A stretch of 64,000 bases of DNA from a virus (lineage: Duplodnaviria > Caudoviricetes): positions 16,635 through 80,634 of IMG/VR virus record IMGVR_UViG_3300037183_000082. One strand, written 5' to 3'. The notes beneath the pieces are model-generated. The model had not been told where the DNA came from. It made no database searches and saw only the letters and a list, made by a program, of their open reading frames with translations. A program made the position numbers and the translations under genes. Shown in pieces: positions 3,803-37,172 of this stretch (positions are counted from its first letter, which is position 1; each line of letters begins with the position of its first letter).

Positions 3803-5561
3803 GCCACGTCCGAAGGTCGCAACGCACGAAGGTGTTCCGCACGCACAGATTCAGGACGCGCAGACCAAGTGGGAGCACGTCGTGGTTCGCATGCACCGCC
3901 GCGTTGCAGGCGGGAAGCTCGCCGCGCTCGGCAACAAGCAAATGACGCTCGGTGAACTGAGCGACATCGAAAACTACGTCAGGGAGTGTGCGGGCGGCGG
4001 CATTTTTCGGATCGAACCGCGCAACCCGCAGGATCTGCTTTCGTACGCAGACCCGATCCCGCCCTTCACCATCGAGATTGATGGGCCGCCCAAGCCCTCC
4101 AACGCGTTCGAGCACACCGGCAGTCAGATGCCGTTCGCGGGGGGCATCGCGCGCATGTCGAACCCGAGCGGTATGCACATCCCGCCCGAAGCGCTCGCGC
4201 AGATCCCATCCTGGGTGCGACCCGAGCATCGCGCCGCGTGGCTTGCGGCATCAGACCCTGTCGGTGTCGCCGCCGCGAACGGTTTGCCGATGCCTGCGTA
4301 TGACCCGCACATGCCGCGCGCGGCAGCCCCGGCCGCCGCGTTCTCCTCCGATCAGCTCGCCGTCAAACAGCTCGACGAGCTGCGTGCCGAGGTCGCAGCC
4401 GACCGTGCTCGCGCTGCGCAACGCGAGAAGGCTCTCACCGAGGAGCTGGAGCGTTCGCGCAAGGACATCGAGAAGCACAAGGACGAGGAGCGCAGCCTCC
4501 GCGAGAAGGGCGAGCGTGAAGTCCTCAAGCTGCAGCTCGAATCGCTGCGCGCGGAGCTGCAGGTGATTCGCGCGACACCACCGCCAGCTCCGCCCCCTGC
4601 GCGACCGGCGATTCCTGTGGAAGCGTGGATCGGCCTGGTCGGCGCGCTCGCACCCGTGCTCACAGCTGTCGTGACGAGCGGCTCGACGCGACAGGCATCC
4701 ATGGCCGAGCAGCAGGCCAAGGTCGCCGAGCTGCAGATGGCAGGTCTGAGCACGGTGCTCGGTGCCGCCAACAACAAGAAATCCGACCTCTCAGGACTCG
4801 CCGAGACGCTGCTCAAAGTCGCGCCGCTCGCGGTCCCGCTGTTCACCGAGTTTTTCAAGAACAAGAGCCCCGCTGCGCAGGCCAACCTGTTCAGCACGCT
4901 CATGGAAAACAACCTGACGACGCTGAGCACGATGGGCAGCTTCCTGCAGAGCATGCTCGAAATGCAGGGCGGCGACCCGTGGTGGAGGCCGATGGTTGAA
5001 AACGGCATCCAAGGTGTCGTCGCTGCCGCGCAGCAATACTCAGAGATGGCCGTGAAGCAGAACGGCGGGACTGTCGCGAACGAGCAGGCCAAGCCACCCG
5101 CACGTCAGGCGAGCCCCGGCACGACTATGGCCACCATGATCGTAAACAACCCGCAGTTCCCAAAGGAGCTGAAAAACGGCGCGTGGGTCGAGGTCATCGC
5201 AGCGCTGCATGACAAGGCCCCGCCGCCCAACGTCGCCGAGTTTGTGACCGAGGAGCTGGTCGCCATGCGCGACAAGAACGCGCTACCCGAGATCTTCGCG
5301 CAGGTGTTCGAGATGCCAGAGCAAGCTGTTGCGCAGCTCATCGCATTTCTACCCATCTACAAGGCCGATCGTCCCTACGCCGATGCTGTGATCCAAGCCA
5401 TCGGCCAGGCCGTGCGCGCCACGACCGTGGTCGAAACGAAGGGTGAACCTGCCGGCGACGATGACGACGGCGACGATGACGAGCCTGCAGCGCGCCCGCC
5501 GGCTGTGCCTTTCAACCTCAACGCAGCACGTGGCAATGCGCGTGTCCCGGTGCCGGCGTGA
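3795..5561 (+). CDS. large coiled-coil hypothetical protein (588 aa)
   Basis: long ORF with central coiled coil, hydrophobic segment and acidic tail. Confidence 0.8.
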   Translation: MSEPRPKVATHEGVPHAQIQDAQTKWEHVVVRMHRRVAGGKLAALGNKQMTLGELSDIENYVRECAGGGIFRIEPRNPQDLLSYADPIPPFTIEIDGPPKPSNAFEHTGSQMPFAGGIARMSNPSGMHIPPEALAQIPSWVRPEHRAAWLAASDPVGVAAANGLPMPAYDPHMPRAAAPAAAFSSDQLAVKQLDELRAEVAADRARAAQREKALTEELERSRKDIEKHKDEERSLREKGEREVLKLQLESLRAELQVIRATPPPAPPPARPAIPVEAWIGLVGALAPVLTAVVTSGSTRQASMAEQQAKVAELQMAGLSTVLGAANNKKSDLSGLAETLLKVAPLAVPLFTEFFKNKSPAAQANLFSTLMENNLTTLSTMGSFLQSMLEMQGGDPWWRPMVENGIQGVVAAAQQYSEMAVKQNGGTVANEQAKPPARQASPGTTMATMIVNNPQFPKELKNGAWVEVIAALHDKAPPPNVAEFVTEELVAMRDKNALPEIFAQVFEMPEQAVAQLIAFLPIYKADRPYADAVIQAIGQAVRATTVVETKGEPAGDDDDGDDDEPAARPPAVPFNLNAARGNARVPVPA

Positions 5562-7801: not shown

Positions 7802-8817
7802 TCCTCGACATCCTATACGACCCGATGCCCGCTGCGAAGCGCCCGACCGAGCGGCGTGCGCTAGGCGAGGTCGGCATTCCGAACGAGGGGGCCTCGCCCA
7901 CGGGCAGCTCGTTCTACAAGACGTTGCTCGCGTGCCCGCGGGAGTTTGCGCTCGCGCACGTCGAGGGCATCCGGCCTGTGATCGAGCGCGACGAGCTGTC
8001 GATCGGGATCATCTTCCACCACGCGCTCATGGTGTACTACCGCGCGATCTACGAGCACCAACAGCGGTGCAAACCGGCCACGCGCTGTCCTGTCGGCAAT
8101 GAAAAGCTAGCGCCCGAGTGGCAGCACTTCTTCTGGGGCAACCAGCGCGAGGCTGGCCAGGCTGCGTTTGCGTCCGTGCTGCAGCTCGCAGCAGAGCCTG
8201 GCTACACGGAGATCTACGAGACCGTCGAGCGCTGCCTTGAAGCCTATTTCGAGACCTATTGGCGCACCGACCGCTGGATTGTCGTCGCGGTCGAGGAGAC
8301 GATCATTCGCAACGGGTTGCCGACGCCATGGAGCGCACGCCTCGATCTATTCATCCACGACATGAAAGACGACGGCCTGTGGATCTGCGAGCACAAGACC
8401 GCGAAGTTCATCAACGCCGACCTCATCGACAACTATGAGATGGACATTCAGATCCTCGGCCAAAAGTGGCTCGTGCAGCGTTGTGTTGATCTCACCGCGT
8501 ACCCGCACTTCAAGGGCGTGCTCATCAACATCGTGAGCAAGGCGAAAACACCCAAGCTCGTGCGCACCCAGGTAAGCCCGAGCCCCGCGCACCTGCGCGA
8601 GTTCGAGAACACGCTCGCGAGCCTTCCCGTGCAGCGCAAGGTCTATGAGCGCCTCGGTTGGCCGAAGTTCCTCGGCCACTGCTCGGGCTACGCGCGCGGC
8701 TACTCGCGGTGTCAATTCTATTCGCTTTGCCATGACTACCCGGAAGTCACGCCCGCGCAGTGGCGCGGCTTCGATTTGCCGGAGGAGTTTGAACGTAAGG
8801 AGGTTGCTGTGCCCTAG
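7798..8817 (+). CDS. PD-(D/E)XK nuclease (Cas4/RecB-like phage exonuclease)
   Basis: ARLDL..EHKT catalytic motifs, Q..G.Y-like motif, N-terminal Cys plus C-terminal C..C...C; GTGA coupling. Confidence 0.85.
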   Translation: MILDILYDPMPAAKRPTERRALGEVGIPNEGASPTGSSFYKTLLACPREFALAHVEGIRPVIERDELSIGIIFHHALMVYYRAIYEHQQRCKPATRCPVGNEKLAPEWQHFFWGNQREAGQAAFASVLQLAAEPGYTEIYETVERCLEAYFETYWRTDRWIVVAVEETIIRNGLPTPWSARLDLFIHDMKDDGLWICEHKTAKFINADLIDNYEMDIQILGQKWLVQRCVDLTAYPHFKGVLINIVSKAKTPKLVRTQVSPSPAHLREFENTLASLPVQRKVYERLGWPKFLGHCSGYARGYSRCQFYSLCHDYPEVTPAQWRGFDLPEEFERKEVAVP

Positions 8818-9001
8818 TGCTTTGTACGGCACGGTTTTGCGCCGCACGGTACTGCACCGTCAGGTAGAAAGATGGATTCAAAAAGTTTCTGCCGCGGTTC
8901 TGTCAATCGTGGTTCGGTAGCGTGGGGTTCTGTGGAGTTAGTTTATGCAGCGTGATGTCTCCTAGCGTCATGTTTGGCTCGGTTCGGCTCTAGTTCGGTT
9001 C
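8818..9001 (+). repeat. 5-nt-periodic NGY-NN array (two tracts), candidate guide RNA(s) for the adjacent RAMP protein
   Basis: tract 1 (8818-8867): 10/10 units start NGY; tract 2 (8896-8990): 16/19 units, plus 2 more after a 1-nt slip; non-coding. Confidence 0.85.
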
Positions 9002-9029
9002 GACAAGACGAAGAAAAGGGTGGTTTTCA

Positions 9030-9698
9030 ATGCAAAGAACAAGAATCAGTTTCGAGGGTGTGAGTCCGCTTCTACAGAATCGGATGTCAGAGGAACAGCT
9101 CATGGCGCTCTTTACGAAAGAGCCGAGCACGCGGCGCAAGTTCGAGGCGCCCAAGGACATTCGCGAGACGGCGCGAAGCAAAGTACACATGACCGAGGCA
9201 GGACTGCCCTACGTTCCGGCAGAGATGTTCATGTCGTGCTGCATCATCGCAGGTCGCTTTATCAAACTCGACGGCAAGCGGCAGATGTCGACAGCTAACT
9301 CGACGCTCCTGCCCGGCTTTCTCTCAGTCGAAGAGACGTTCTTCTACCTCGTGGACCCGCGACAGGGCGGCCCGGCCGAGTGGGCAACAGCTACGCAAAC
9401 AGCCCCGGCGCAGCCAAAACACCCAGCTGAGTGGGAATCCGACATTCGACGTGGTGTGAGCAACAACGCAGGTGGAAGCGCCGTTGCCATCGTACGCCCC
9501 CGCTTTGATCGCTGGGGTTTCACGGTGACGTGCATGCTCGACACCGATCAGCTCAGTGAAGCAACTTTCCGCGAGCTGTTCGATATTGCTGGCTCGCGCG
9601 TCGGGATCGGCGACTTCCGTCCGATGCGCAAAGGCATTTACGGTCGTTTCAAGGTCACAGGCTGGCAGCGCATGGACGAGCTGAAGTCCGCATCATGA
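9030..9698 (+). CDS. stand-alone RAMP / Cas7-like protein (Vipr-like)
   Basis: ISFEGVSPLL beta1, PYVPAE motif, hairpin ending in RPRF..W, C-terminal G-rich loop AGSRVGIGDFRPMRKGIYGRF. Confidence 0.8.
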   Translation: MQRTRISFEGVSPLLQNRMSEEQLMALFTKEPSTRRKFEAPKDIRETARSKVHMTEAGLPYVPAEMFMSCCIIAGRFIKLDGKRQMSTANSTLLPGFLSVEETFFYLVDPRQGGPAEWATATQTAPAQPKHPAEWESDIRRGVSNNAGGSAVAIVRPRFDRWGFTVTCMLDTDQLSEATFRELFDIAGSRVGIGDFRPMRKGIYGRFKVTGWQRMDELKSAS

Positions 9699-12956: not shown

Positions 12957-13354
12957 CACCCGTCCAACTTGAGAGCCCTTACGCAGGCCACGTCCATCGC
13001 AACAAGGCCTACCTACAGCTCTGCATCCGCGATTGCTTTGAGCGCGGCGAGGCGCCATTCGCGTCGCACCAGCTCTATGTGGATGCGCTCGACGACGACA
13101 TCGCGATCGAGCGAAAGCAGGGCATCGAAGCGGGCTTGATCTGGGGCAAGTTCGCCGAACGTACGGTGGTCTACACAGACTTCGGGATTTCGAGTGGCAT
13201 GAAGCACGGAATCCTTGCGGCCGAGAAGCTTCGACGCCCGTGCATTTTTCGCACGCTGAAAGACTTCGACCGCGTCACGTTCTACACGGCGACTGACGAG
13301 CTGCAAGAGACAGACTGGCACGAGCTGCTCACACGCTGCCGGAGCGTGCGATGA
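12953..13354 (+). CDS. conserved phage protein (nucleoside deoxyribosyltransferase-like fold)
   Basis: ESPYAG..RN..Y..C.RD...GEAPFASH..Y; VVYTDFGISSGM..GI. Confidence 0.65.
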   Translation: MTPVQLESPYAGHVHRNKAYLQLCIRDCFERGEAPFASHQLYVDALDDDIAIERKQGIEAGLIWGKFAERTVVYTDFGISSGMKHGILAAEKLRRPCIFRTLKDFDRVTFYTATDELQETDWHELLTRCRSVR

Positions 13355-16300
13355 GCCCGAACCGCCCGACGCGTTTTCCGATCTACACCGAGGCGCACGC
13401 CAACTGCAGCAAGTGCGAGCTGCAACCAGCCTGCGAGGACGGCAAGGTCGTACAGGCCTACCAGCCGGCCAGCGACGCGCCTTTCAACGGTATCATGATC
13501 GTGGGCGAGGGTCCCGGGCATCACGAGGTCATCCAGGGCCGCCCGTTCGTGGGACCTTCCGGGCGCTTGCTCCGTGCGATTCTCAAGTCGCTCGGGGCTG
13601 ATCTCGACGCTTGCTACATCACCAACGCAACGTTGTGCCGACCGCCTATCACGGCATCGGATGACAAACGCTCGTTCATGCAGAAGTTCCCCCGCGCGGT
13701 GCACAGCTGCCTGCCGCGCCTGGAGCTTGAGATCACTGCTGTCCGCCCGCGCGTGATCCTCGCGCTCGGGGCACAAGCCCTGGCTGCGCTCACGGGCTAC
13801 GAGGAGCACTACACGAAGCTTCTGCCCGCGCCGCCGTGCGAGACGTGTAAGGGCGGCCATGTGCTGAAAGACGGTGGGGAGACGCCGCGCAGGGTGGTCG
13901 GCGTGCAGTGCTCCAAAGGTGAGTGCAAGCACCGCATTCTCTTGCCGCCCCAGTTCGAGGGAAAGAAGGTCAAAGGGCTCGATCTGCCCGATATCCTGCC
14001 CACGGATTGCCCCAAGTGCGGCGCGACCTTGCAGCGGCTCACGGTGCGACAGATCCCGTGCCCGACCTGCGGCGGCCTCAAGCGCGTCGAGACGCCACTT
14101 GTGAACTTTCGGTGGGACTACCAGCTCGGCGAGGTCGCAGGGGCTGTCATCGATGCGAGCAAGCACGGGTGGGAGACGTGTGGCGTGCGGTACGTGATCG
14201 CGACCTACCACCCCTCGTTCTTGCTTCGACCTCCGCCCAGCTCAGGCACGGGCGAGGACAAGGCCATGGGCGGCCAGTACGCGGCGCCTTGCGTTCAGAA
14301 GCACATGAAAAAGTCGCTGCGTCTACTCACCGAGGACGCGGACTGGTCCACAGGTTTTGAGGTCACAGACGAGTCGGACCACACAGACGCTGCGGCGCAC
14401 TTGCTCGACTACATCTACGGCGACCCGGCAGTCACCGAGTTCACATGCGATATCGAGAGCGAGGGCTGGGGCTCCGAATACGTCTGCCAGGTGTGCGAGA
14501 CGAAGTCTGGGATCATCCGCACCGCACCACCGACCGAGCTGTCCGCCGAGCTGCACCATTGCGAGACGTGCACAACCGCCGCGAACGCAGTTTTGCGGGC
14601 GGAGAACAAGGAAGAAACGGGCCCGCTGTTCACGCAGCACGTGCCGATCGTAAAAGAGCTGGACGCCCGCAAGATCGCCGAGGTGTCGAAGATCAAGATC
14701 CTGGGGTTCGCGAGCCGTAAGCGTGGCTATTCGTTGGTCACAGACACGCGCACGCTCGACCCTGACAATACAAGCGACCCGCTCTATCAGGCCATCGTCA
14801 AGGTGCTCACCGACACGACCTTGCGCATCTGCTTTCACCACGGCAACTACGACGTGCCGGCGCTGTACAAGCTCTGGGGCATTGAGGTCAAGAACTACAC
14901 AGACGACACGCTGATCCTGCACCACGATCTGTACCCGGACGAAAAGCACTCGCTGTCGCACGTCGCATTCGAGTTTACCGATGTCCACGCGTGGAAGCCG
15001 CCCAAGAAACTTCACAACCGACTCGCGCACGAGTCGTTCGAGGAAGAGTGCGCGTACAACGCACGCGACACGATGCTCACGGACGACTCGCTCCAACAGA
15101 TGAAGCTCAAGCTTGCCCCGAAGCACCTCGATAAGGTCTACGCCATCGACATGCAGCTGCAGCAGCAGGCTGTTGAGATGTGGCGCAACGGGATGTACGT
15201 CGACAAAGACAACGCCATCCGCATCGGCCAGGAGGCAGTCGACCGCGAGCTACGCCTGCAAGCCGAAATGCGCAAGCTGCTCAAGTGGGACAACTTCAAC
15301 CCGCGTTCTGCCACGCAGCTGGCTGAGGCGCTGTTCGATCGCTTTGGCTACACGCCCTCGAAGATGACTGAGGGTGGCGCGCGCTCGACCGCGAAAGAGG
15401 TCGTGCTGCGGCTCACAGACAGCCCCTTTAAGCGCCTCGTGCTCGACCACAAGGATGCCGTGGCCACGCTGGCTAACTTCTTCGAGGTGGTAGACAACCG
15501 CGCCTACCCGGGGCGCAGCCTGCGCATCTGGAACGACCAGCGCATCCGCGCGACGTGGAAAGCGTACGGCGCACGCACGGGGCGTTTCTCGTCCAATCCC
15601 AACTTTCAAAACTGGAAGGCGTGGCTCAAGGCACTCGTGACCTGCGCGCCAGGCCGCAAGATCGTGGGTGCCGATTACGACCAGCTGGAGCTGCGCATTC
15701 TTGCTGCCCTGAGCGGTGATCCTGTGCTCATGGAAAAGTGTCTGAACGCCGACGAGAACGACAAGCTCAACCCGGACAAGGACCCGCACAGCTACGTGGC
15801 GTTTTTCGCGTTCGGCAAGCTGTTCACGGATCTAGACAAGAACGACCCGGCGCACGACAAAAAGAACGAGCGCTGCAAGTGCCAGAAGTGCGAGCGCAAG
15901 GCCCTGCGCGATATCTGCAAGCGTGTGATCTACGGCATGAACTACGGCGCGGGCGACGAGACCGTGCTCGAAGCCATCTATTCAGGCGGGTACAACGGCC
16001 CGCCCATCTCGCTCGACATGATCGGCCGCGTCCGCAAGGCCATCTACACCGCGTTCAGTGGGATCAAGGCCTACCAGGAAAAGCTCTACACCGACGCCGT
16101 CAAGAACAAGGCGATCTTTTCGCCGCTGCTCGGCCGCCGTCGGATCTTCCCGCTCGGCGATGTGCCGTTCACCGAGATCCTCAACTTCCCAATCCAGTGT
16201 CTTACCGGCGCGACGCGCGTTCTCACTGATCGCGGCTACCAGACGCTCGAAAGTCTCAACGCGCTCACGCAAGCACATACGGGCAGCGAACAGGTGCAAG

Positions 16301-17625
16301 CACGGGTGCTCTCGAAGGGCGCGGAGCAAGTTTGGCGTGTGACGCTAGACAACGGGCAGCAAATCGAAACGAACGAGGGTCACTATTTGCTCGGCACGAA
16401 CGGCTGGCTCGCGACGGGTGAGCTGCAGCCTGACACACTGATCGCGCAACCACTTGCACGAGAGCAGCCAACGCGCCGTGACATGACGGCAGGTTTCGGG
16501 CGGGACCCGGACACGTTCTACTGGCTCGGCTACTACGTCGGCAACGGTTCTTGGGATACCGACGATGCGATCAAATTCGCGTTCGGTTCGCGTGTGAAGC
16601 GGCAACACCATAGTGAATACGCCACCAAGTTCCTGGAGTGGGCGCGCTTGCACGAGCTTGCACCGCAAAAGCCGCAGATCGAGCTAAACCTTACTTGCGT
16701 GACGTTGCAGAACCACGCGGCGCGCGAACTGTTCACAAGTCTCGGCGTTATGCCCGGGGCTGGCGCGCATCAAAAGCGGCTTCCGGAAGCTGCGTGGGCG
16801 GGCTCGATTGCGGAGCGCAAAGCCTTCTTGGTCGGGCTGCTCGATGCCGACGGTTCGCTTGCGACAGACCCGCCCAACATCACGTTGTGCAACCGCGCTT
16901 TGCTTCAGGACGTGCAGCTCCTACTGCGGACGGTCGGGATTCCGAGCCGCCTGTACGGGCCCTATGTCGCGGATCGTGCGGGTCACCTGGCGTGGCGTCT
17001 CACGATTCCAGGGACGCTGCTCACACGACTCGGGTACGGGCAAGCGCAGCGTGTGCGGTACCCGAATGACGTGTCACTGGATCCGACCTCTATTGCGGAG
17101 TTTCTGGATACGTTCCCCAAGAATCCGTTCAGTTTTTCGACACAGCAAAGCATGTACATGCTCTGGCGGCGGATCTCAGAGGGTGGTTTCACGAACCCCC
17201 ACACGCTTTTACGCATGTGGGAGGCGCTCGACGCAACACCGACCCAACCGATTTACGCTTTCCATGCGGTGCGCAGCGTCGAGCGTTTGGATCGCGCGGC
17301 GCCGATGTTCACGCTTCACGTTGACCACCCACTCCATCGTTACGACAGCGCTGGCGTGATCAGCAAAAACTCAGGCGGCGCAGACATCATGAACCAGCGC
17401 AATCTTATCTTCGGTGGCGAGGTGCGCAGCATCGATCCCACTGCGATGTACATCGCCCAGGTGCACGACGCCGTCTACTACGAAGTCGACGAGCAGCGCG
17501 CGCCCCAGGTCGCAGACCGTATGACCGAGGTCCTCACCTGGGATACCGCGATGTACGAAGGCGGCCCCGTGATGCACTTCAGTGCGCAGGCGTCCATTGG
17601 CGACACCTGGAAGGCGGCAGCATGA
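13351..17625 (+). CDS. polA: family A DNA polymerase with N-terminal family-4 UDG-like domain, 3'-5' exonuclease and an intein
   Basis: VGEGPG/RPFVGPSG/TYHP (UDG); DIES, FHHGNYD, YNARD (exo); TGRFSS.PNFQN, ADYDQLELR, K..IYGMNYG, QVHD (PolA). Confidence 0.95.
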   Translation: MSPNRPTRFPIYTEAHANCSKCELQPACEDGKVVQAYQPASDAPFNGIMIVGEGPGHHEVIQGRPFVGPSGRLLRAILKSLGADLDACYITNATLCRPPITASDDKRSFMQKFPRAVHSCLPRLELEITAVRPRVILALGAQALAALTGYEEHYTKLLPAPPCETCKGGHVLKDGGETPRRVVGVQCSKGECKHRILLPPQFEGKKVKGLDLPDILPTDCPKCGATLQRLTVRQIPCPTCGGLKRVETPLVNFRWDYQLGEVAGAVIDASKHGWETCGVRYVIATYHPSFLLRPPPSSGTGEDKAMGGQYAAPCVQKHMKKSLRLLTEDADWSTGFEVTDESDHTDAAAHLLDYIYGDPAVTEFTCDIESEGWGSEYVCQVCETKSGIIRTAPPTELSAELHHCETCTTAANAVLRAENKEETGPLFTQHVPIVKELDARKIAEVSKIKILGFASRKRGYSLVTDTRTLDPDNTSDPLYQAIVKVLTDTTLRICFHHGNYDVPALYKLWGIEVKNYTDDTLILHHDLYPDEKHSLSHVAFEFTDVHAWKPPKKLHNRLAHESFEEECAYNARDTMLTDDSLQQMKLKLAPKHLDKVYAIDMQLQQQAVEMWRNGMYVDKDNAIRIGQEAVDRELRLQAEMRKLLKWDNFNPRSATQLAEALFDRFGYTPSKMTEGGARSTAKEVVLRLTDSPFKRLVLDHKDAVATLANFFEVVDNRAYPGRSLRIWNDQRIRATWKAYGARTGRFSSNPNFQNWKAWLKALVTCAPGRKIVGADYDQLELRILAALSGDPVLMEKCLNADENDKLNPDKDPHSYVAFFAFGKLFTDLDKNDPAHDKKNERCKCQKCERKALRDICKRVIYGMNYGAGDETVLEAIYSGGYNGPPISLDMIGRVRKAIYTAFSGIKAYQEKLYTDAVKNKAIFSPLLGRRRIFPLGDVPFTEILNFPIQCLTGATRVLTDRGYQTLESLNALTQAHTGSEQVQARVLSKGAEQVWRVTLDNGQQIETNEGHYLLGTNGWLATGELQPDTLIAQPLAREQPTRRDMTAGFGRDPDTFYWLGYYVGNGSWDTDDAIKFAFGSRVKRQHHSEYATKFLEWARLHELAPQKPQIELNLTCVTLQNHAARELFTSLGVMPGAGAHQKRLPEAAWAGSIAERKAFLVGLLDADGSLATDPPNITLCNRALLQDVQLLLRTVGIPSRLYGPYVADRAGHLAWRLTIPGTLLTRLGYGQAQRVRYPNDVSLDPTSIAEFLDTFPKNPFSFSTQQSMYMLWRRISEGGFTNPHTLLRMWEALDATPTQPIYAFHAVRSVERLDRAAPMFTLHVDHPLHRYDSAGVISKNSGGADIMNQRNLIFGGEVRSIDPTAMYIAQVHDAVYYEVDEQRAPQVADRMTEVLTWDTAMYEGGPVMHFSAQASIGDTWKAAA
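16198..17370 (+). mobile_element. intein with LAGLIDADG homing endonuclease (391 aa)
   Basis: junctions FPIQ|CLTG...ISKN|S; WLGYYVGNGS and LVGLLDADGS motifs. Confidence 0.92.
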
Positions 17626-18250: not shown

Positions 18251-18578
18251 CACCTGCCAGGAGTGCGGTGCGGCCGTGCCCGCCGGGCTTGCGGTATGCG
18301 AGGCCTGTTTCCGGGGTCGGGGCCTGTACCGCATCGATGAGCACGGCGAGGGTAAGCCGCCGTGGGATGTGCAGCGCAAGGCCCAAATAAAGCAGCCCCC
18401 CGGCGACCAAACCGAGGGGCTCAAGGACAGACATCCCACTGAAGCGATGCCAACGGAGCCTACCAAAGCTCTGCTGTCGCCGCAATGGCGCCAAGAGGTT
18501 ATCGGACTTCTGCGCGCGCAACAGCTCGAAATCACACTCTTGATCGCAAAGCTCGAAGGGATGGACGCCCATGTTTGA
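18243..18578 (+). CDS. hypothetical protein (CxxC...CxxC)
   Basis: overlapping operon ORF. Confidence 0.6.
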   Translation: MTDTCQECGAAVPAGLAVCEACFRGRGLYRIDEHGEGKPPWDVQRKAQIKQPPGDQTEGLKDRHPTEAMPTEPTKALLSPQWRQEVIGLLRAQQLEITLLIAKLEGMDAHV

Positions 18579-20004
18579 AGACGAAGAAACGGACGAGCTG
18601 CAGCTCGACGACCCGGAGCCTGTTGAAAGCCCTGCCAATCTGGCGTTTTCGCCGAAACAGAAGGCCGCGCTCGATGTGCTCTTGAACACCCGAGACAACG
18701 TGCTTCTCACGGGCGTCGCAGGCTGCGGTAAGAGCACCATCATCCGCGAGTTTTTGCGGCAGATGGCTTTGCGCAAGGCGGAGACAGGCACGGGGCGCCT
18801 GCCCGTGGTGTGTGCACCGACCGGCATCGCGGCCCTCAACGTGGGCGGCACGACGATCCACAAGCTGTTCGGGCTCGGCATCGACTTCGACGTGACGCGG
18901 CCCAAGCTCAGCAATCGCGCGCTCGGGATCCTCGGCTACATCGACACGATCATCATCGACGAGATCTCGATGGTCCGCTCGGATCTGTTTCACATGATGG
19001 ACATCGCGCTCAAGCGCGCGAACAGCAACACGCGCCCGTTCGGCGGAACGCGGATCATCATGGTGGGCGACCCGTACCAGCTGCCGCCCGTCGTAAAGCG
19101 GCAAGAGGCGCAGTTTCTAGAGACGAACTACGGCACCGCGGCGGGCTGGTGTTTTCTCTCGCCGCAATTCGAGACGCTCAACCCTCGGGTGTTCTACCTG
19201 CAGGACTCGTTTCGACAGGCCGATACAACGTTCGTTGACCTGCTCAACCGCGTGCGAGACAAGGACCTGAGCGCGGTCTCTGCGCTGAACGCCATCGCGC
19301 GCAGCCACGAGCTTGCGCCTGAGACGGTGCCCTGGCTGTGCTCCTACAAGGCGGACATGGACGTCCGCAACTACAAGATGCTGCGCGCGCTTGACGAGCA
19401 AATCGGCACCATCCGGCCGGATCTGGAAGGCGACACTAGCTCGGCGCCGAAAGAGATTCTCGAACCCGTCGAGCTGGCCATCGGCGCGCGCGTCATGATT
19501 ACCAAGAACGCACAGGGTTGGGAGGGTGCGCCGCCGGAGTACGTGAACGGCTCGCTCGGCTGGGTCGAGGACTTTTCGGCGACCGCCTACGTCTGGAAGA
19601 AAGACGATGACGGTAACTGGGCGAAGTCGCCCAAAGACGCCATCGGTGTGCGGCTCGACAGCGGCGTGGTAGTGAACGTGCCTGCGTTCGAGTACGAGCT
19701 GACGAAGCTGGAGCCGAACAGCAAGACGGCTGAGCTTGAAAAGGTTCGCGTCGGCGCTGTGCGGCAGTACCCGTTGACGCTGGCCTGGGCCATCACCATC
19801 CACAAAGCCCAAGGCATGGGCTTCGATGCCGCAGTCGTGAACCTCGGCGAGCGCGGCGCCTTCGCACACGGGCAGGCCTACGTCGCGCTGAGCCGACTCA
19901 AGAGCGCGCAGGGCCTGTACTTGCGCCACCCGCTCATGAAGCGCGACCTTCAATGCGACGCGAACGTGCCGAAGTTCCTGGCCCCTTACGCGGTAGGTGC
20001 GTGA
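18571..20004 (+). CDS. PIF1/RecD-like SF1B DNA helicase
   Basis: GVAGCGKS, APTGIAA, IDEISM, GDPYQLPPV, YPLTLAWAITIHKAQG, GQAYVALSR. Confidence 0.93.
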   Translation: MFEDEETDELQLDDPEPVESPANLAFSPKQKAALDVLLNTRDNVLLTGVAGCGKSTIIREFLRQMALRKAETGTGRLPVVCAPTGIAALNVGGTTIHKLFGLGIDFDVTRPKLSNRALGILGYIDTIIIDEISMVRSDLFHMMDIALKRANSNTRPFGGTRIIMVGDPYQLPPVVKRQEAQFLETNYGTAAGWCFLSPQFETLNPRVFYLQDSFRQADTTFVDLLNRVRDKDLSAVSALNAIARSHELAPETVPWLCSYKADMDVRNYKMLRALDEQIGTIRPDLEGDTSSAPKEILEPVELAIGARVMITKNAQGWEGAPPEYVNGSLGWVEDFSATAYVWKKDDDGNWAKSPKDAIGVRLDSGVVVNVPAFEYELTKLEPNSKTAELEKVRVGAVRQYPLTLAWAITIHKAQGMGFDAAVVNLGERGAFAHGQAYVALSRLKSAQGLYLRHPLMKRDLQCDANVPKFLAPYAVGA

Positions 20005-20892: not shown

Positions 20893-21425
20893 CTGCGCGA
20901 AAGCCCGTGCCCCTTCCGCCGCCGAGCGCGCACCACCCTGATGCGTGGTTGAAGCTCGCCGAGGCTGCGCCTTACTTGCGCATGACGCCCGGCGAGCTGC
21001 GCAAGAACGTGGCGAAGGGTCTGATCAAACCAGATGGTGTGGGATCACACAGCACGTGGCTTTTCAAGGTCCGAACGCTTGACCAGTTTGTGACAGACCG
21101 TCTGAAGCGCTACACCGACTCTATCCAGGAGTCGGACAGTGCGAATCAAAACGACCAAAACCCGGTTCTCGGGCGTGTACAGCGCGGACGAGCGGCCAGG
21201 GTTCTACCGAGTGTGGGGACAGACCGAGGACAAGAAAACGGGCCTGAAGCTGACGCTCGACAAGATCATCGAAGCGCGGAGCCCGCTCGACGCGAACCGG
21301 CAGCGGACAGAGCTGCTCGCAAAGCTCGACGTGCGGGAGCAAGAGAAGACACGAAAGCGCCTGTCCGATTACGTGGAATCGTGGCTGCGTACCAAGCTGC
21401 CAAAGGTAAAGGCGTCGACCGCTAG
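20889..21425 (+). CDS. excisionase-like HTH protein (3' part overlaps int; real domain within the first ~75 aa)
   Basis: WLKLAEAAPYLRMT..ELRK HTH directly upstream of integrase. Confidence 0.65.
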   Translation: MTARKPVPLPPPSAHHPDAWLKLAEAAPYLRMTPGELRKNVAKGLIKPDGVGSHSTWLFKVRTLDQFVTDRLKRYTDSIQESDSANQNDQNPVLGRVQRGRAARVLPSVGTDRGQENGPEADARQDHRSAEPARREPAADRAARKARRAGAREDTKAPVRLRGIVAAYQAAKGKGVDR

Positions 21426-22398
21426 CCTCTACGCGACCGTGATCGACGAGCACATCCTTCCCGTGCTCGGCGACTTCTACCTCGACGCCATCACGCGAGA
21501 CGACGTGCTCGACTGGCGCGACGCGATGAGCGCAAAGCAGCTCCTCGACCCGGTGGGCCGTCCTGTGTTCAACGTAGATGGCACGCCGCGCCTTCCGCAG
21601 CCCGTCACCGTGAACGGGCGCTACCGCGTGCTCAAGACGTTGCTGCTCGATGCTGTGGTCGATGAGAAGCTCGACCGCGACCCGACCTCGCGCGTGTCCG
21701 CCATTCGCGAGAACACCGCGACGGGCGAGGACACGGACGAGGGCGGCGGCAAGAGCATCACCGCGGCCGAGCTTGCCTCGCTGCTCACCCAAGCCCAGGC
21801 CGCGACGCCGGGGTGGTACCCGTTCTTTTTCGTGCTCGCGTTCACGGGCTTGCGCTTCGGCGAGATCACGGCGCTCAAGTGGCGCGACCTCGACGAGGAC
21901 GCCGGCAAGCTCTGGGTCCGGCGCGCGCAGTGGAAGGGCATCGTCGACACGGTCAAGAACAACAAGCCGCGCACGGTGCCCCTCATGCCCGAGCTGCTCG
22001 CCGTGTTCGAGCAGCACCGGGCGGCCCAGCATGCCGCGATGACCAAGCGCCTGAAGCGACAGCGCGTGCCCGACCTCGCGTCTGCCAACCCCGGGGACTG
22101 GATCTTCCCCTCGCGGCAGCCGGGCAAGCTCCTGCACAGCACAGCTCCCAGGAAGCCCCTCGCGCTCGCTACCTCAAAGGCGGGCGTCGAGCCAGGATTT
22201 ACAATTCATGGCTTCCGCCACACCTTCAACAACCTGGTCCGCCAGGTCGCCGAGCTGAACGGCCAGACCATCGTGCTGCAGGCCATGACGGGCCATTCGA
22301 GCGACCAGATGACCGAGCACTACAGCCAGGTGGGCATCGAGGAAAAGCGCCGTGCGGTGGGCGGCCTTCTGCGCCTGGTCCAGGGCGGCGCTCCGTAA
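21139..22398 (+). CDS. int: tyrosine integrase
   Basis: AFTGLRFGEI, HGFRH, GH..MTEHY catalytic residues; AGGAG RBS; adjacent attP. Confidence 0.95.
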   Translation: MRIKTTKTRFSGVYSADERPGFYRVWGQTEDKKTGLKLTLDKIIEARSPLDANRQRTELLAKLDVREQEKTRKRLSDYVESWLRTKLPKVKASTASLYATVIDEHILPVLGDFYLDAITRDDVLDWRDAMSAKQLLDPVGRPVFNVDGTPRLPQPVTVNGRYRVLKTLLLDAVVDEKLDRDPTSRVSAIRENTATGEDTDEGGGKSITAAELASLLTQAQAATPGWYPFFFVLAFTGLRFGEITALKWRDLDEDAGKLWVRRAQWKGIVDTVKNNKPRTVPLMPELLAVFEQHRAAQHAAMTKRLKRQRVPDLASANPGDWIFPSRQPGKLLHSTAPRKPLALATSKAGVEPGFTIHGFRHTFNNLVRQVAELNGQTIVLQAMTGHSSDQMTEHYSQVGIEEKRRAVGGLLRLVQGGAP

Positions 22399-36474: not shown

Positions 36475-37172
36475 CCGCGGCGCGTCGTGCGCGAGGCTGC
36501 GAACAGCTTGCCGGGTTTCTTCCATTCGGGGTAGCCATCGGCGAATTGTTGTGAGACCTCGCCGTTGACCATGGTGATCACGTAGCCCCCTGCGTCCATG
36601 GTGAAGGGGGCTTTCAGCTTGCCCATGTAGTCGAAGCGCGCGCCGTGGGGTGGCTGCGCGTCGAACCAGGACGGGAGCAGGAAGTTCGACACGTGCACGG
36701 GGTGCGCGTTGAGCGCGGGCGTGATGGCATAGCCGTCGTTCTCGACCGCATCGCCCAGCTCCATGGCGTACATGGTGCCGTCGGCGGCCTGGCCCCAGTA
36801 GTTGATCGTGGGGTCGCCCCACATTTCGAGCACCTCATGCGAGAGGCACGCAGCGATGCCATTCAGGCCCAGGATGGTGCCGCCGTTGTCGAGGATCGTC
36901 TTGGCGAACACCCGGGCGTAGGGCTGCCCCGTCGGCGTCTCATCGTGGTAGCCGAGTGCGCCGGCCTGGTCGGCATCGTCGAACATGAACACTTGCCAGG
37001 CACCGGGGATCGTGTGCCTGGAGTCGGCGCAGAAGGTCACCGAGGCCGGCAGGCGATTCCACGCCGGGGCTGCGTGCTTCGCGACTTGCACCGAGCACGC
37101 GTTGCACATCGCCGCGAGCAGATCTTCATGCCCAGCGAGCGCCTTCGACTTGTTCGACACCTGGATTTGCAT
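36471..37172 (-). CDS. putative Zn-binding metallopeptidase-like protein (HExxE..DP)
   Basis: GALGYH, SHEVLEMWGDP, E.GD.VE, VSNF..P.WF. Confidence 0.6.
   Translation of the reverse strand: MQIQVSNKSKALAGHEDLLAAMCNACSVQVAKHAAPAWNRLPASVTFCADSRHTIPGAWQVFMFDDADQAGALGYHDETPTGQPYARVFAKTILDNGGTILGLNGIAACLSHEVLEMWGDPTINYWGQAADGTMYAMELGDAVENDGYAITPALNAHPVHVSNFLLPSWFDAQPPHGARFDYMGKLKAPFTMDAGGYVITMVNGEVSQQFADGYPEWKKPGKLFAASRTTRRG

What the first reader, a model, noticed from the sequence alone, without database searches (positions are those of the whole stretch)
8818..9001. Two separable guide-like tracts with decodable NN strings
Tract 1 (8818-8867): TGC-TT TGT-AC GGC-AC GGT-TT TGC-GC CGC-AC GGT-AC TGC-AC CGT-CA GGT-AG, 10/10 NGY. 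By my rough estimate (about 0.16 per unit) the chance is near 1e-8. An A-rich linker follows (8868-8889). Tract 2 (8896-8990): GGT-TC TGT-CA ATC-GT GGT-TC GGT-AG CGT-GG GGT-TC TGT-GG AGT-TA GTT-TA TGC-AG CGT-GA TGT-CT CCT-AG CGT-CA TGT-TT GGC-TC GGT-TC GGC-TC, 16/19, then a 1-nt slip and AGT-TC GGT-TC. The G and Y positions are held while position 1 and NN vary, which is not the pattern of a slippage microsatellite. Inference: two or three individual guides, with off-consensus units as boundaries or decay.
Basis: partly seen in the sequence, partly recalled or inferred. Interest (0 to 1): 0.85.

Follow-up and report, generated by a model that had tools for sequence, protein, structure and literature searches.

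The report
VIPR guide-RNA array beside vipr gene
The five-base-periodic tracts are the guide-RNA array of a VIPR system (a CRISPR-related, virus-borne DNA-silencing system first described in 2026 preprints), sitting just upstream of its Cas7-like vipr gene; it is a genuine new example of a known kind, and its targets were not found.

Summary
At 8818-8867 there are 10 of 10 xGY-NN pentamers, the only such run in 64 kb on either strand (about 0.004 expected). At 8896-8990 there are 16 of 19. Both lie in the 212-bp spacer directly upstream of a 222-aa gene (9030-9698).

A profile of that protein's family matches the solved SUSP1 Vipr protein (PDB 36pp, E=1.2e-7). Its model has a Cas7/Csm3-type RAMP fold. 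The residues aligned to SUSP1's GGY-binding residues are conserved.

Of 117 related loci, 85 carry same-strand pentamer tracts within 150 nt of the vipr homologue. Between related loci the NN positions vary more than G and Y. Guides of this family match other loci under the published 1-nt-skip rule only.

So the "guide-like, decodable NN" reading is supported, but it was published in 2026 (VIPR: Vipr plus vrRNA). This scan has already reported VIPR loci on other DNA (106 findings, at least 94 genomes).

Local peculiarities:
- The scaffold is relaxed (B-G-Y, the published "YNNNG" variant).
- The array lies upstream only.
- No accessory (vap) gene is recognisable.
- The 3' tail is unclear.

No target was found in its own genome, the IMG/VR viral contigs or the metagenome contigs. 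Guide number and boundaries remain inferred.

The parts
8818..8867 (+). vrRNA repeat tract 1: ten B-G-Y-NN pentamers. NN string: TT AC AC TT GC AC AC AC CA AG. It possibly extends 5' to 8808.
   Evidence: 10/10 xGY, unique in the window; phase composition; same strand as vipr and directly upstream of it, as in 54 of 117 related loci.
8868..8895 (+). A-rich linker. Candidate 3' tail of the first vrRNA: together with the last repeat unit it can form an 8-bp hairpin (GGUAGAAA/UUUCUGCC, about 8863-8893).
   Evidence: Fold of 8858-8897: -10.2 kcal/mol, z = -2.06, 6 of 200 shuffles fold as well. No Rfam match. The role as a tail is inferred, not shown.
8896..8990 (+). vrRNA repeat tract 2: 19 pentamers, 16 of them consensus. 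NN string: TC CA GT TC AG GG TC GG TA TA AG GA CT AG CA TT TC TC TC.
   Evidence: Single tracts of 19-20 units ending in a shared motif occur in relative L013, so one long guide is as likely as two.
8991..9009 (+). 1-nt slip, then AGTTC GGTTC GACAA GAC. Probable constant 3' end of the last vrRNA.
   Evidence: Resembles the recurring ends '...GGTTC TGTAA GGAC/GGGC' of vrRNAs in relative L013 and the Y-G-Y-A-A + GG ends in L001-L014. This is an inference from resemblance only.
9010..9029 (+). Leader with a purine-rich ribosome-binding site (AAAAGGGTGG) before the vipr ATG.
   Evidence: Sequence. Homologues align from residue 1, so 9030 is the start.
9030..9698 (+). vipr gene: 222-aa Cas7-like RAMP protein. 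Its stop overlaps the start of the Sak4-like ATPase gene (ATGA).
   Evidence: Family profile against PDB 36pp_D 'SUSP1 Vipr protein', E = 1.2e-7, over nearly the full length. AF2 model pLDDT 87, pTM 0.84. Foldseek top hits are type VII Cas7, Csm3 and Cmr4, E about 1e-5. R156, D195, F196 and R197 are conserved in 114-118 of 118 homologues.

Best explanation
This is a VIPR (Viral Interference Programmable Repeat) locus of a temperate, roughly 80-kb virus. It consists of a vipr gene (9030-9698) and, directly upstream on the same strand, an array encoding probably two vrRNAs (about 8818-8895 and about 8896-9010).

Mechanism, by homology to the characterised SUSP1 system:
- The array is transcribed, most simply with the upstream operon, and processed.
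- One Vipr protomer binds each pentamer. It sequesters the G-Y scaffold through the thumb arginine and the G-loop D-F-R, and a helical filament forms.
- The filament displays the NN dinucleotides, which pair with a DNA target strand while skipping every third target base.
- Binding represses transcription of a competing mobile element.

Shown here: the periodic array, Vipr homology, the family-wide array-gene association, and family-wide 1-nt-skip matches.

Inferred: expression, processing sites, guide number, the silencing outcome and the target.
For: (1) Periodicity far beyond chance.

(2) The downstream protein's family profile hits the SUSP1 Vipr structure entry 36pp at E = 1.2e-7, aligned over residues 4-193. 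SUSP1 residues R138, D177, W178 and R179, which hold G1, G2 and Y3 (paper), align to R156, D195, F196 and R197. These are present in 114-118 of 118 family members.

(3) The model has a RAMP fold: Cas7/Csm3 top hits.

(4) 77 of 80 viral loci carry + strand tracts. 85 of 117 loci have one within 150 nt of vipr, with density 1.04 per kb near vipr against 0.11 per kb in the far flanks.

(5) Between related loci, identity is 0.88 at G, 0.77 at Y, and 0.57 and 0.49 at the NN positions, against 0.84 in the vipr coding sequence.

(6) With family guides searched against the other loci, 17 of 140 reach at least 18/20 at skip 1, against 3 for shuffled guides. Skips 0, 2 and 3 give 1, 1 and 2. Example: the L005 guide spells E-D-N-P-C-V-V-I-P-T-A-G-G-K of a helicase gene in L002 and others, 20/20.

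(7) The paper's methods list 'YNNNG' repeats as a known alternative scaffold, which is this B-G-Y-NN unit.

(8) No self-target, as the paper reports for its own systems.
Against: - No target was found for either tract in its own genome, the related loci, the IMG/VR viral contigs or the metagenome contigs. The collection scans needed exact matches, so imperfect targets would be missed.
- The two 3' extensions are not alike and only one folds modestly, whereas published vrRNAs have an invariable structured tail.
- No vap gene is recognisable: the neighbours are not syntenic in 117 loci.
- Three of 19 units in tract 2 are off consensus, and its 3' part is low-complexity (GGYTC repeats), so part of the array could be decayed.
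- Similarity to the characterised SUSP1 Vipr is distant and detectable only with a family profile.
Confidence: 0.88

Rival explanations
1. The array is a decayed or repurposed vrRNA relic. It is still bound by Vipr but no longer guides to any DNA; for example it could act as an autoregulatory leader or sponge for the vipr mRNA that follows it.
For: Three off-consensus units and a low-complexity GGYTC run in tract 2. No target in any collection. The array abuts the vipr ribosome-binding site. There is no conserved tail.
Against: Tract 1 is a perfect 10/10 and the G/Y scaffold of tract 2 is 84% intact, which argues for ongoing selection. The paper notes frequent internal degeneracy in working vrRNAs. 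Missing targets are expected for an uncultivated virus with no sampled host pangenome, and the scans needed exact matches.
Confidence: 0.08
2. The period-5 tract is a binding array for some other oligomeric nucleic-acid-binding protein (in the manner of TRAP on spaced triplets), or a DNA-level iteron or origin element of the replication module, unrelated to the downstream gene.
For: It lies inside a replication and recombination module: SNF2 helicase, PD-(D/E)XK nuclease, Sak4-like ATPase and a DUF669 protein (weak PHROG matches to single-strand DNA-binding protein families). Tract 1 has a 15-nt internal duplication.
Against: Across 117 loci the tracts travel with vipr homologues and not with these neighbours. 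They are strand-specific with vipr. The scaffold letters are those contacted by conserved Vipr residues.
Confidence: 0.03
3. Chance composition or a slippage microsatellite.
For: The genome is GC-rich (63.6%), and weaker 7-8 of 10 runs occur in coding DNA elsewhere.
Against: About 0.004 expected against one observed for tract 1, and a second tract 28 nt away. The units differ in NN while holding G/Y. The same arrangement recurs in relatives.
Confidence: 0.01

Closest known systems
VIPR systems (Vipr protein plus vrRNA). The characterised type II examples are Escherichia phage SUSP1 and a Pseudomonas fulva prophage (PMC13142463; bioRxiv 10.64898/2026.04.26.720927; 10.64898/2026.10.15.759431).
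   Same: A small single-RRM RAMP protein with a conserved thumb Arg and a G-loop Asp-aromatic-Arg. Tandem pentamers with a held G-Y scaffold and variable NN, next to the gene on the same strand. Virus-borne. No self-target. At family level, the 1-nt-skip code matches conserved coding motifs of rival phages.
   Different: The first scaffold base is relaxed (G, C or T), which is the paper's 'YNNNG' variant rather than GGY. The residue aligned to SUSP1 H17 is Asn, in 110 of 118 family members. The array is upstream only. There is no recognisable vap gene and no invariable or pseudoknotted tail. The VIPR type (I-VII) could not be assigned because the paper's figures and type tables are not readable here.
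Class 1 CRISPR backbones (Cas7/Csm3/Cmr4 filaments on crRNA).
   Same: The RAMP fold is the best structural match. There is one protomer per RNA repeat unit, and a thumb flips bases periodically.
   Different: No CRISPR array or other cas genes in the 80.6-kb genome. The period is 5 nt, with 3 nt sequestered and 2 presented, rather than 6 nt with 1 flipped. The guide information is interleaved with the scaffold instead of lying in a contiguous spacer.
TRAP (trp RNA-binding attenuation protein) sites: 11 (G/U)AG triplets with 2-3-nt spacers. This comparison is from my own knowledge and was not tested.
   Same: A roughly 5-nt-periodic triplet-plus-spacer RNA read by an oligomeric protein, one subunit per triplet.
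   Different: TRAP spacers carry no information and TRAP is not a RAMP. There is no homology, and TRAP regulates its own operon rather than guiding to DNA.

Membership tests
VIPR | Vipr protein: small RAMP homologous to a characterised Vipr (RRM core, G-loop, thumb; no second RRM). | tested here: met
   Profile against PDB 36pp SUSP1 Vipr, E = 1.2e-7, nearly full length. AF2 pLDDT 87. Foldseek Cas7/Csm3 hits at E about 1e-5. 222 aa. No Pfam domain.
VIPR | Residues that hold the GGY scaffold (SUSP1 R138, D177, W178, R179). | tested here: met
   They align to R156, D195, F196 and R197, conserved in 117, 114, 115 and 118 of 118 homologues. H17 aligns to N17; the consequence is unknown.
VIPR | Tandem pentamer vrRNA tract of 9-16 YNNGG units, or a related consensus, adjacent to vipr. 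| tested here: met
   10/10 and 16/19 B-G-Y-NN units on the vipr strand, ending 29 nt before the ATG. The 'YNNNG' variant is named in the paper's methods. Tract 2 is longer than 16 units.
VIPR | Scaffold conserved and NN hypervariable among relatives. | tested here: met
   At family level only: identity is G 0.88 and Y 0.77 against NN 0.57 and 0.49 in 17 locus pairs. No close relative of this virus is available (nearest Vipr 54% identical), so it was not tested on this array itself.
VIPR | Invariable, structured 3' tail after each repeat tract. | tested here: inconclusive
   The linker hairpin has z = -2.06. The end of tract 2 is unstructured (z = +0.47). The two extensions align poorly. The end resembles the L013-type 'GGTTC YGYAA GG'. 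No hammerhead or other Rfam family was found.
VIPR | Target recognition by NN with a 1-nt skip. | tested here: inconclusive
   Met for the family: skip 1 gives 17 guides at 18/20 or better against 3 shuffled, and the other skips give 1-2. For this window's guides no match exceeds the controls and no seeded hit extends.
VIPR | Accessory vap gene next to vipr. | tested here: not met
   Homologues of the window's neighbours occur near vipr in 0-1 of 117 loci. No recurrent flank family has a member in this genome. The paper says loci 'typically' have a vap, so this does not exclude membership.
VIPR | vrRNAs expressed as roughly 100-nt RNAs that co-purify with Vipr. | not testable with these tools
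No sigma-70-like promoter was found in 8500-9200.
VIPR | Carried by a virus or provirus. | tested here: met
   The tool treats the genome as a virus record. It is an 80,634-bp contig with a terminal overlap and encodes an integrase, DNA polymerase and Dda-like helicase.
CRISPR-Cas (class 1) | CRISPR repeat-spacer array and further cas genes. | tested here: not met
   No 18-mer occurs 3 or more times, or twice within 25-120 nt, in the genome. The neighbours are replication and recombination genes.

The most novel reading that the evidence does not exclude
This clade's Vipr may read a minimal two-letter scaffold (only G2 and Y3 fixed) and tolerate very long guides (19 units or more). Tract 1 has a 15-nt internal periodicity (NN: TT AC AC / TT GC AC / AC AC CA). 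It may therefore be aimed at a 9-bp tandem DNA repeat, such as the iterons or operators of a rival replicon, rather than at a coding motif. That target class is not described in the main texts of the preprints I read.
Probability: 0.08. Interest if true: 0.5.

Novelty: new member of a known kind. Interest (0 to 1): 0.3.

Why it matters
It adds one more natural VIPR locus, in an uncultivated GC-rich temperate virus whose structural genes gave no informative PHROG matches. It shows the relaxed B-G-Y scaffold and has no accessory gene.

The session's family-level checks independently reproduce the published 1-nt-skip code and the NN hypervariability on environmental loci.

They also point to culturable Mycobacterium phages (Saal and relatives) that carry a 26%-identical Vipr homologue with an upstream GGC-NN array, which could serve as a bench model for this Vipr family.

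It does not open a new question by itself.

Tried and rejected
- **Rfam.** Evalue mode on 8500-9300 gave only noise. Gathering mode on 18 related loci gave no hammerhead or other ribozyme.
- **Whole-spacer fold.** No excess structure, z = -0.29.
- **Promoter and terminator scan.** Nothing usable.
- **blastn against cultured phages.** No match.
- **Self-target search at skips 0-3 against shuffled NN order.** Best 15/20 and 23/38, equal to the controls. The skip-3 hit is the array itself.
- **Exact 1-nt-skip patterns.** Tract 1 (10 units), tract 2 units 1-10, 4-12 and 11-19: 0 hits in viral contigs. Tract 1 and tract 2 units 1-10: 0 hits in metagenome contigs.
- **8-unit seeds.** 39, 9 and 13 viral hits. 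None extends beyond the seed, and the remaining bases match at about 25%.
- **Best local hit of tract 1.** 17/20 in a 662-aa ORF (function not checked) downstream of vipr in L027. This equals the best of 30 shuffles, so it was rejected as evidence.
- **Link between N17 (for SUSP1 H17) and the relaxed first scaffold base.** Rejected: N17 is also present in the GGC-type members.
- **The flanking nuclease, helicase and Sak4 genes as vap genes.** Rejected by lack of synteny.
- **A 9/9 run on the minus strand at genome 4937-4981.** It lies inside a 304-aa ORF outside the window and is probably chance.

Full report
**What is there.** The coordinates fall in a 212-bp non-coding spacer. It lies between the stop codon of a PD-(D/E)XK (Cas4-like) nuclease gene, which ends at 8817, and the ATG of a 222-aa gene at 9030-9698, all on the + strand.

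- 8818-8867 is ten consecutive xGY-NN pentamers.
- A 28-nt A-rich linker follows.
- 8896-8990 is nineteen pentamers, sixteen of which fit.
- A single extra T follows, then AGTTC GGTTC.

NGY occurs at 17.8% of positions in the window. A 10/10 run is therefore expected about 0.004 times on both strands of 64 kb, and it is the only one found. In the pentamer register, position 2 is G in 26 of 29 units and position 3 is always a pyrimidine. Position 1 is G, C or T and rarely A. Positions 4-5 are mixed. The whole 80.6-kb genome has no second array of this quality.

**What it is.** The downstream protein has no Pfam domain. It belongs to a large family of uncharacterised proteins: 229 hits, most of those listed about 190-230 aa.
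- A profile of 26 members matches one solved structure, PDB 36pp 'SUSP1 Vipr protein'. The match has E = 1.2e-7 and covers nearly the whole length of both proteins.
- The AlphaFold model (pLDDT 87, pTM 0.84) finds type VII Cas7, Csm3 and Cmr4 as its best structural matches. That is a RAMP fold.

The literature search turned up three 2026 preprints describing VIPR systems.
- VIPR systems consist of a phage-borne ancestral RAMP (Vipr) and vrRNAs made of 9-16 pentamers. A GGY scaffold alternates with hypervariable NN.
- One Vipr protomer binds each repeat and sequesters GGY. It presents NN for pairing with a DNA target strand in which every third base is skipped.
- The outcome shown for SUSP1 is transcriptional silencing of competing mobile elements.
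- The SUSP1 residues that hold the scaffold are thumb R138 and G-loop D177, W178 and R179. They align to R156, D195, F196 and R197 here. These are present in 114-118 of 118 family members that I collected.
- The paper's methods state that some clades use 'NNNGG, YNNNG and NNNNG' repeats. Y-N-N-N-G is the same unit as the B-G-Y-N-N seen here.

**Comparative evidence.** I fetched 80 viral and 37 prokaryote-genome loci encoding relatives.
- 77 of the 80 viral loci carry strictly called same-strand tracts.
- 85 of 117 loci have a tract within 150 nt of the gene. Tract density is ninefold higher near vipr than in the far flanks.
- The closest relatives (40-54% identical Vipr) show the same relaxed first position. 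Their tracts run to about 10-50 consecutive units, and many end in Y-G-Y-A-A followed by GG.
- In 17 pairs of related loci, identity is 0.88 at G and 0.77 at Y. It is 0.57 and 0.49 at the two N positions, and 0.84 in the adjacent vipr coding sequence.
- I took the guides of all loci and searched them against the other loci with 0-3 skipped bases, masking the arrays and excluding near-duplicate loci. Of 140 guides, 17 reached at least 18/20 at skip 1, against 3 for order-shuffled guides. Only 1, 1 and 2 did so at skips 0, 2 and 3.
- The hits are coherent. For example, a guide downstream of vipr in L005 spells, at codon positions 1 and 2, E-D-N-P-C-V-V-I-P-T-A-G-G-K. That is the Walker A region of a helicase gene in six other loci, matched 20/20. 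Other guides hit the 5' end of rival vipr genes.

This reproduces the published code in the wider environmental family.

**This locus in particular.** The neighbouring genes are an SNF2 helicase, the nuclease, a Sak4-like ATPase whose start overlaps the vipr stop, and a DUF669 protein with weak PHROG matches to single-strand DNA-binding protein families. Homologues of them are found near vipr in at most 1 of 117 loci. No recurrent flank family has a member in this genome. I therefore read vipr plus array as a self-contained cassette that has landed in the replication module, without a recognisable vap gene.

The carrier looks like a temperate virus. It has an integrase, a DNA polymerase, a Dda-like helicase and terminal overlap of the contig, and it has no CRISPR-like repeats.

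Guide boundaries are inferred, not shown.
- Tract 1 plus its linker would give an RNA of roughly 80 nt. Its 3' part can form an 8-bp hairpin (z = -2.06).
- Tract 2 may be a single long guide, as seen in L013. It would then end in the GGYTC run and GACAA GAC, which resembles the L013-type end.
- Alternatively, tract 2 may be two guides.
- The two 3' extensions are not alike, so the 'invariable tail' criterion is unresolved.

**Targets.** None was found.
- Its own genome gives only control-level scores, as the paper also reports for its systems.
- Exact 9-10-unit patterns gave no hit in the viral or metagenome collections.
- 8-unit seeds gave 39, 9 and 13 viral hits that do not extend.
- The best local match, 17/20 in a 662-aa ORF downstream of vipr in L027, equals the best shuffled score.
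- The collection scans accept only exact patterns and the host is unknown, so this is weak negative evidence.

**Verdict.** This scan has also reported VIPR loci many times on other DNA: 106 findings in at least 94 genomes. It is a new member of a known kind. Its minor peculiarities are the relaxed scaffold, the upstream-only array, the absence of a vap gene and the unclear tail.

Noticed in passing
L157:1570-1830 (Mycobacterium phage Saal, NC_023580.1, about 36584-36844): Eighteen records of cultured Mycobacterium smegmatis phages (12 named phages, e.g. Saal, Zizzle, BobaPhett, Florinda) encode a 26%-identical Vipr homologue annotated 'hypothetical protein'. In Saal, a roughly 270-nt GGC-NN pentamer array lies directly upstream, and the annotated start of gene 51 runs into it. 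This is a tractable bench model for this Vipr family.
   Followed up: partly
L005:3696-3790 against L002:4188, L003:3085, L045/L047:4087, L065:6143, L057:4411: [quoted passage not shown] Other guides hit the 5' end of rival vipr genes (L031:2909 on L046 and L057 at 3007).
   Followed up: partly
window 8821-8850: Tract 1 contains a 15-nt (three-unit) tandem duplication at 80% identity (TTTGTACGGCACGGT / TTTGCGCCGCACGGT). Its NN string is therefore partly 9-nt periodic when decoded.
   Followed up: no
window 9030-9101: The public gene call for this protein (P0001, 198 aa) starts at Met25. Homologues align from residue 1, including the conserved N-terminal strand and the G-x-x-P-L-L-x-N motif, so the call is truncated.
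   Followed up: yes
window 9360-9430 (protein residues about 112-134): The window's Vipr has an insertion of about 20 residues (…QGGPAEWATATQTAPAQPKHPA…) that is absent from nearly all of the 25 aligned homologues. It is modelled with low confidence.
   Followed up: no
whole genome G000 (80,634 bp); window 13351-17625, 18571-20004, 21139-22398: The contig ends repeat its first roughly 125 bases or more, which suggests a circular or terminally redundant complete genome. It encodes a family-A-like DNA polymerase, a Dda-like helicase and a tyrosine integrase. The 1226-aa ORF gave no PHROG match and the 718-aa ORF only an unknown-function one.
   Followed up: partly
genome G000 4937-4981, minus strand (outside the window): A 9/9 xGY period-5 run lies inside a 304-aa ORF. 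It is probably chance in GC-rich coding DNA and not a solo guide.
   Followed up: partly
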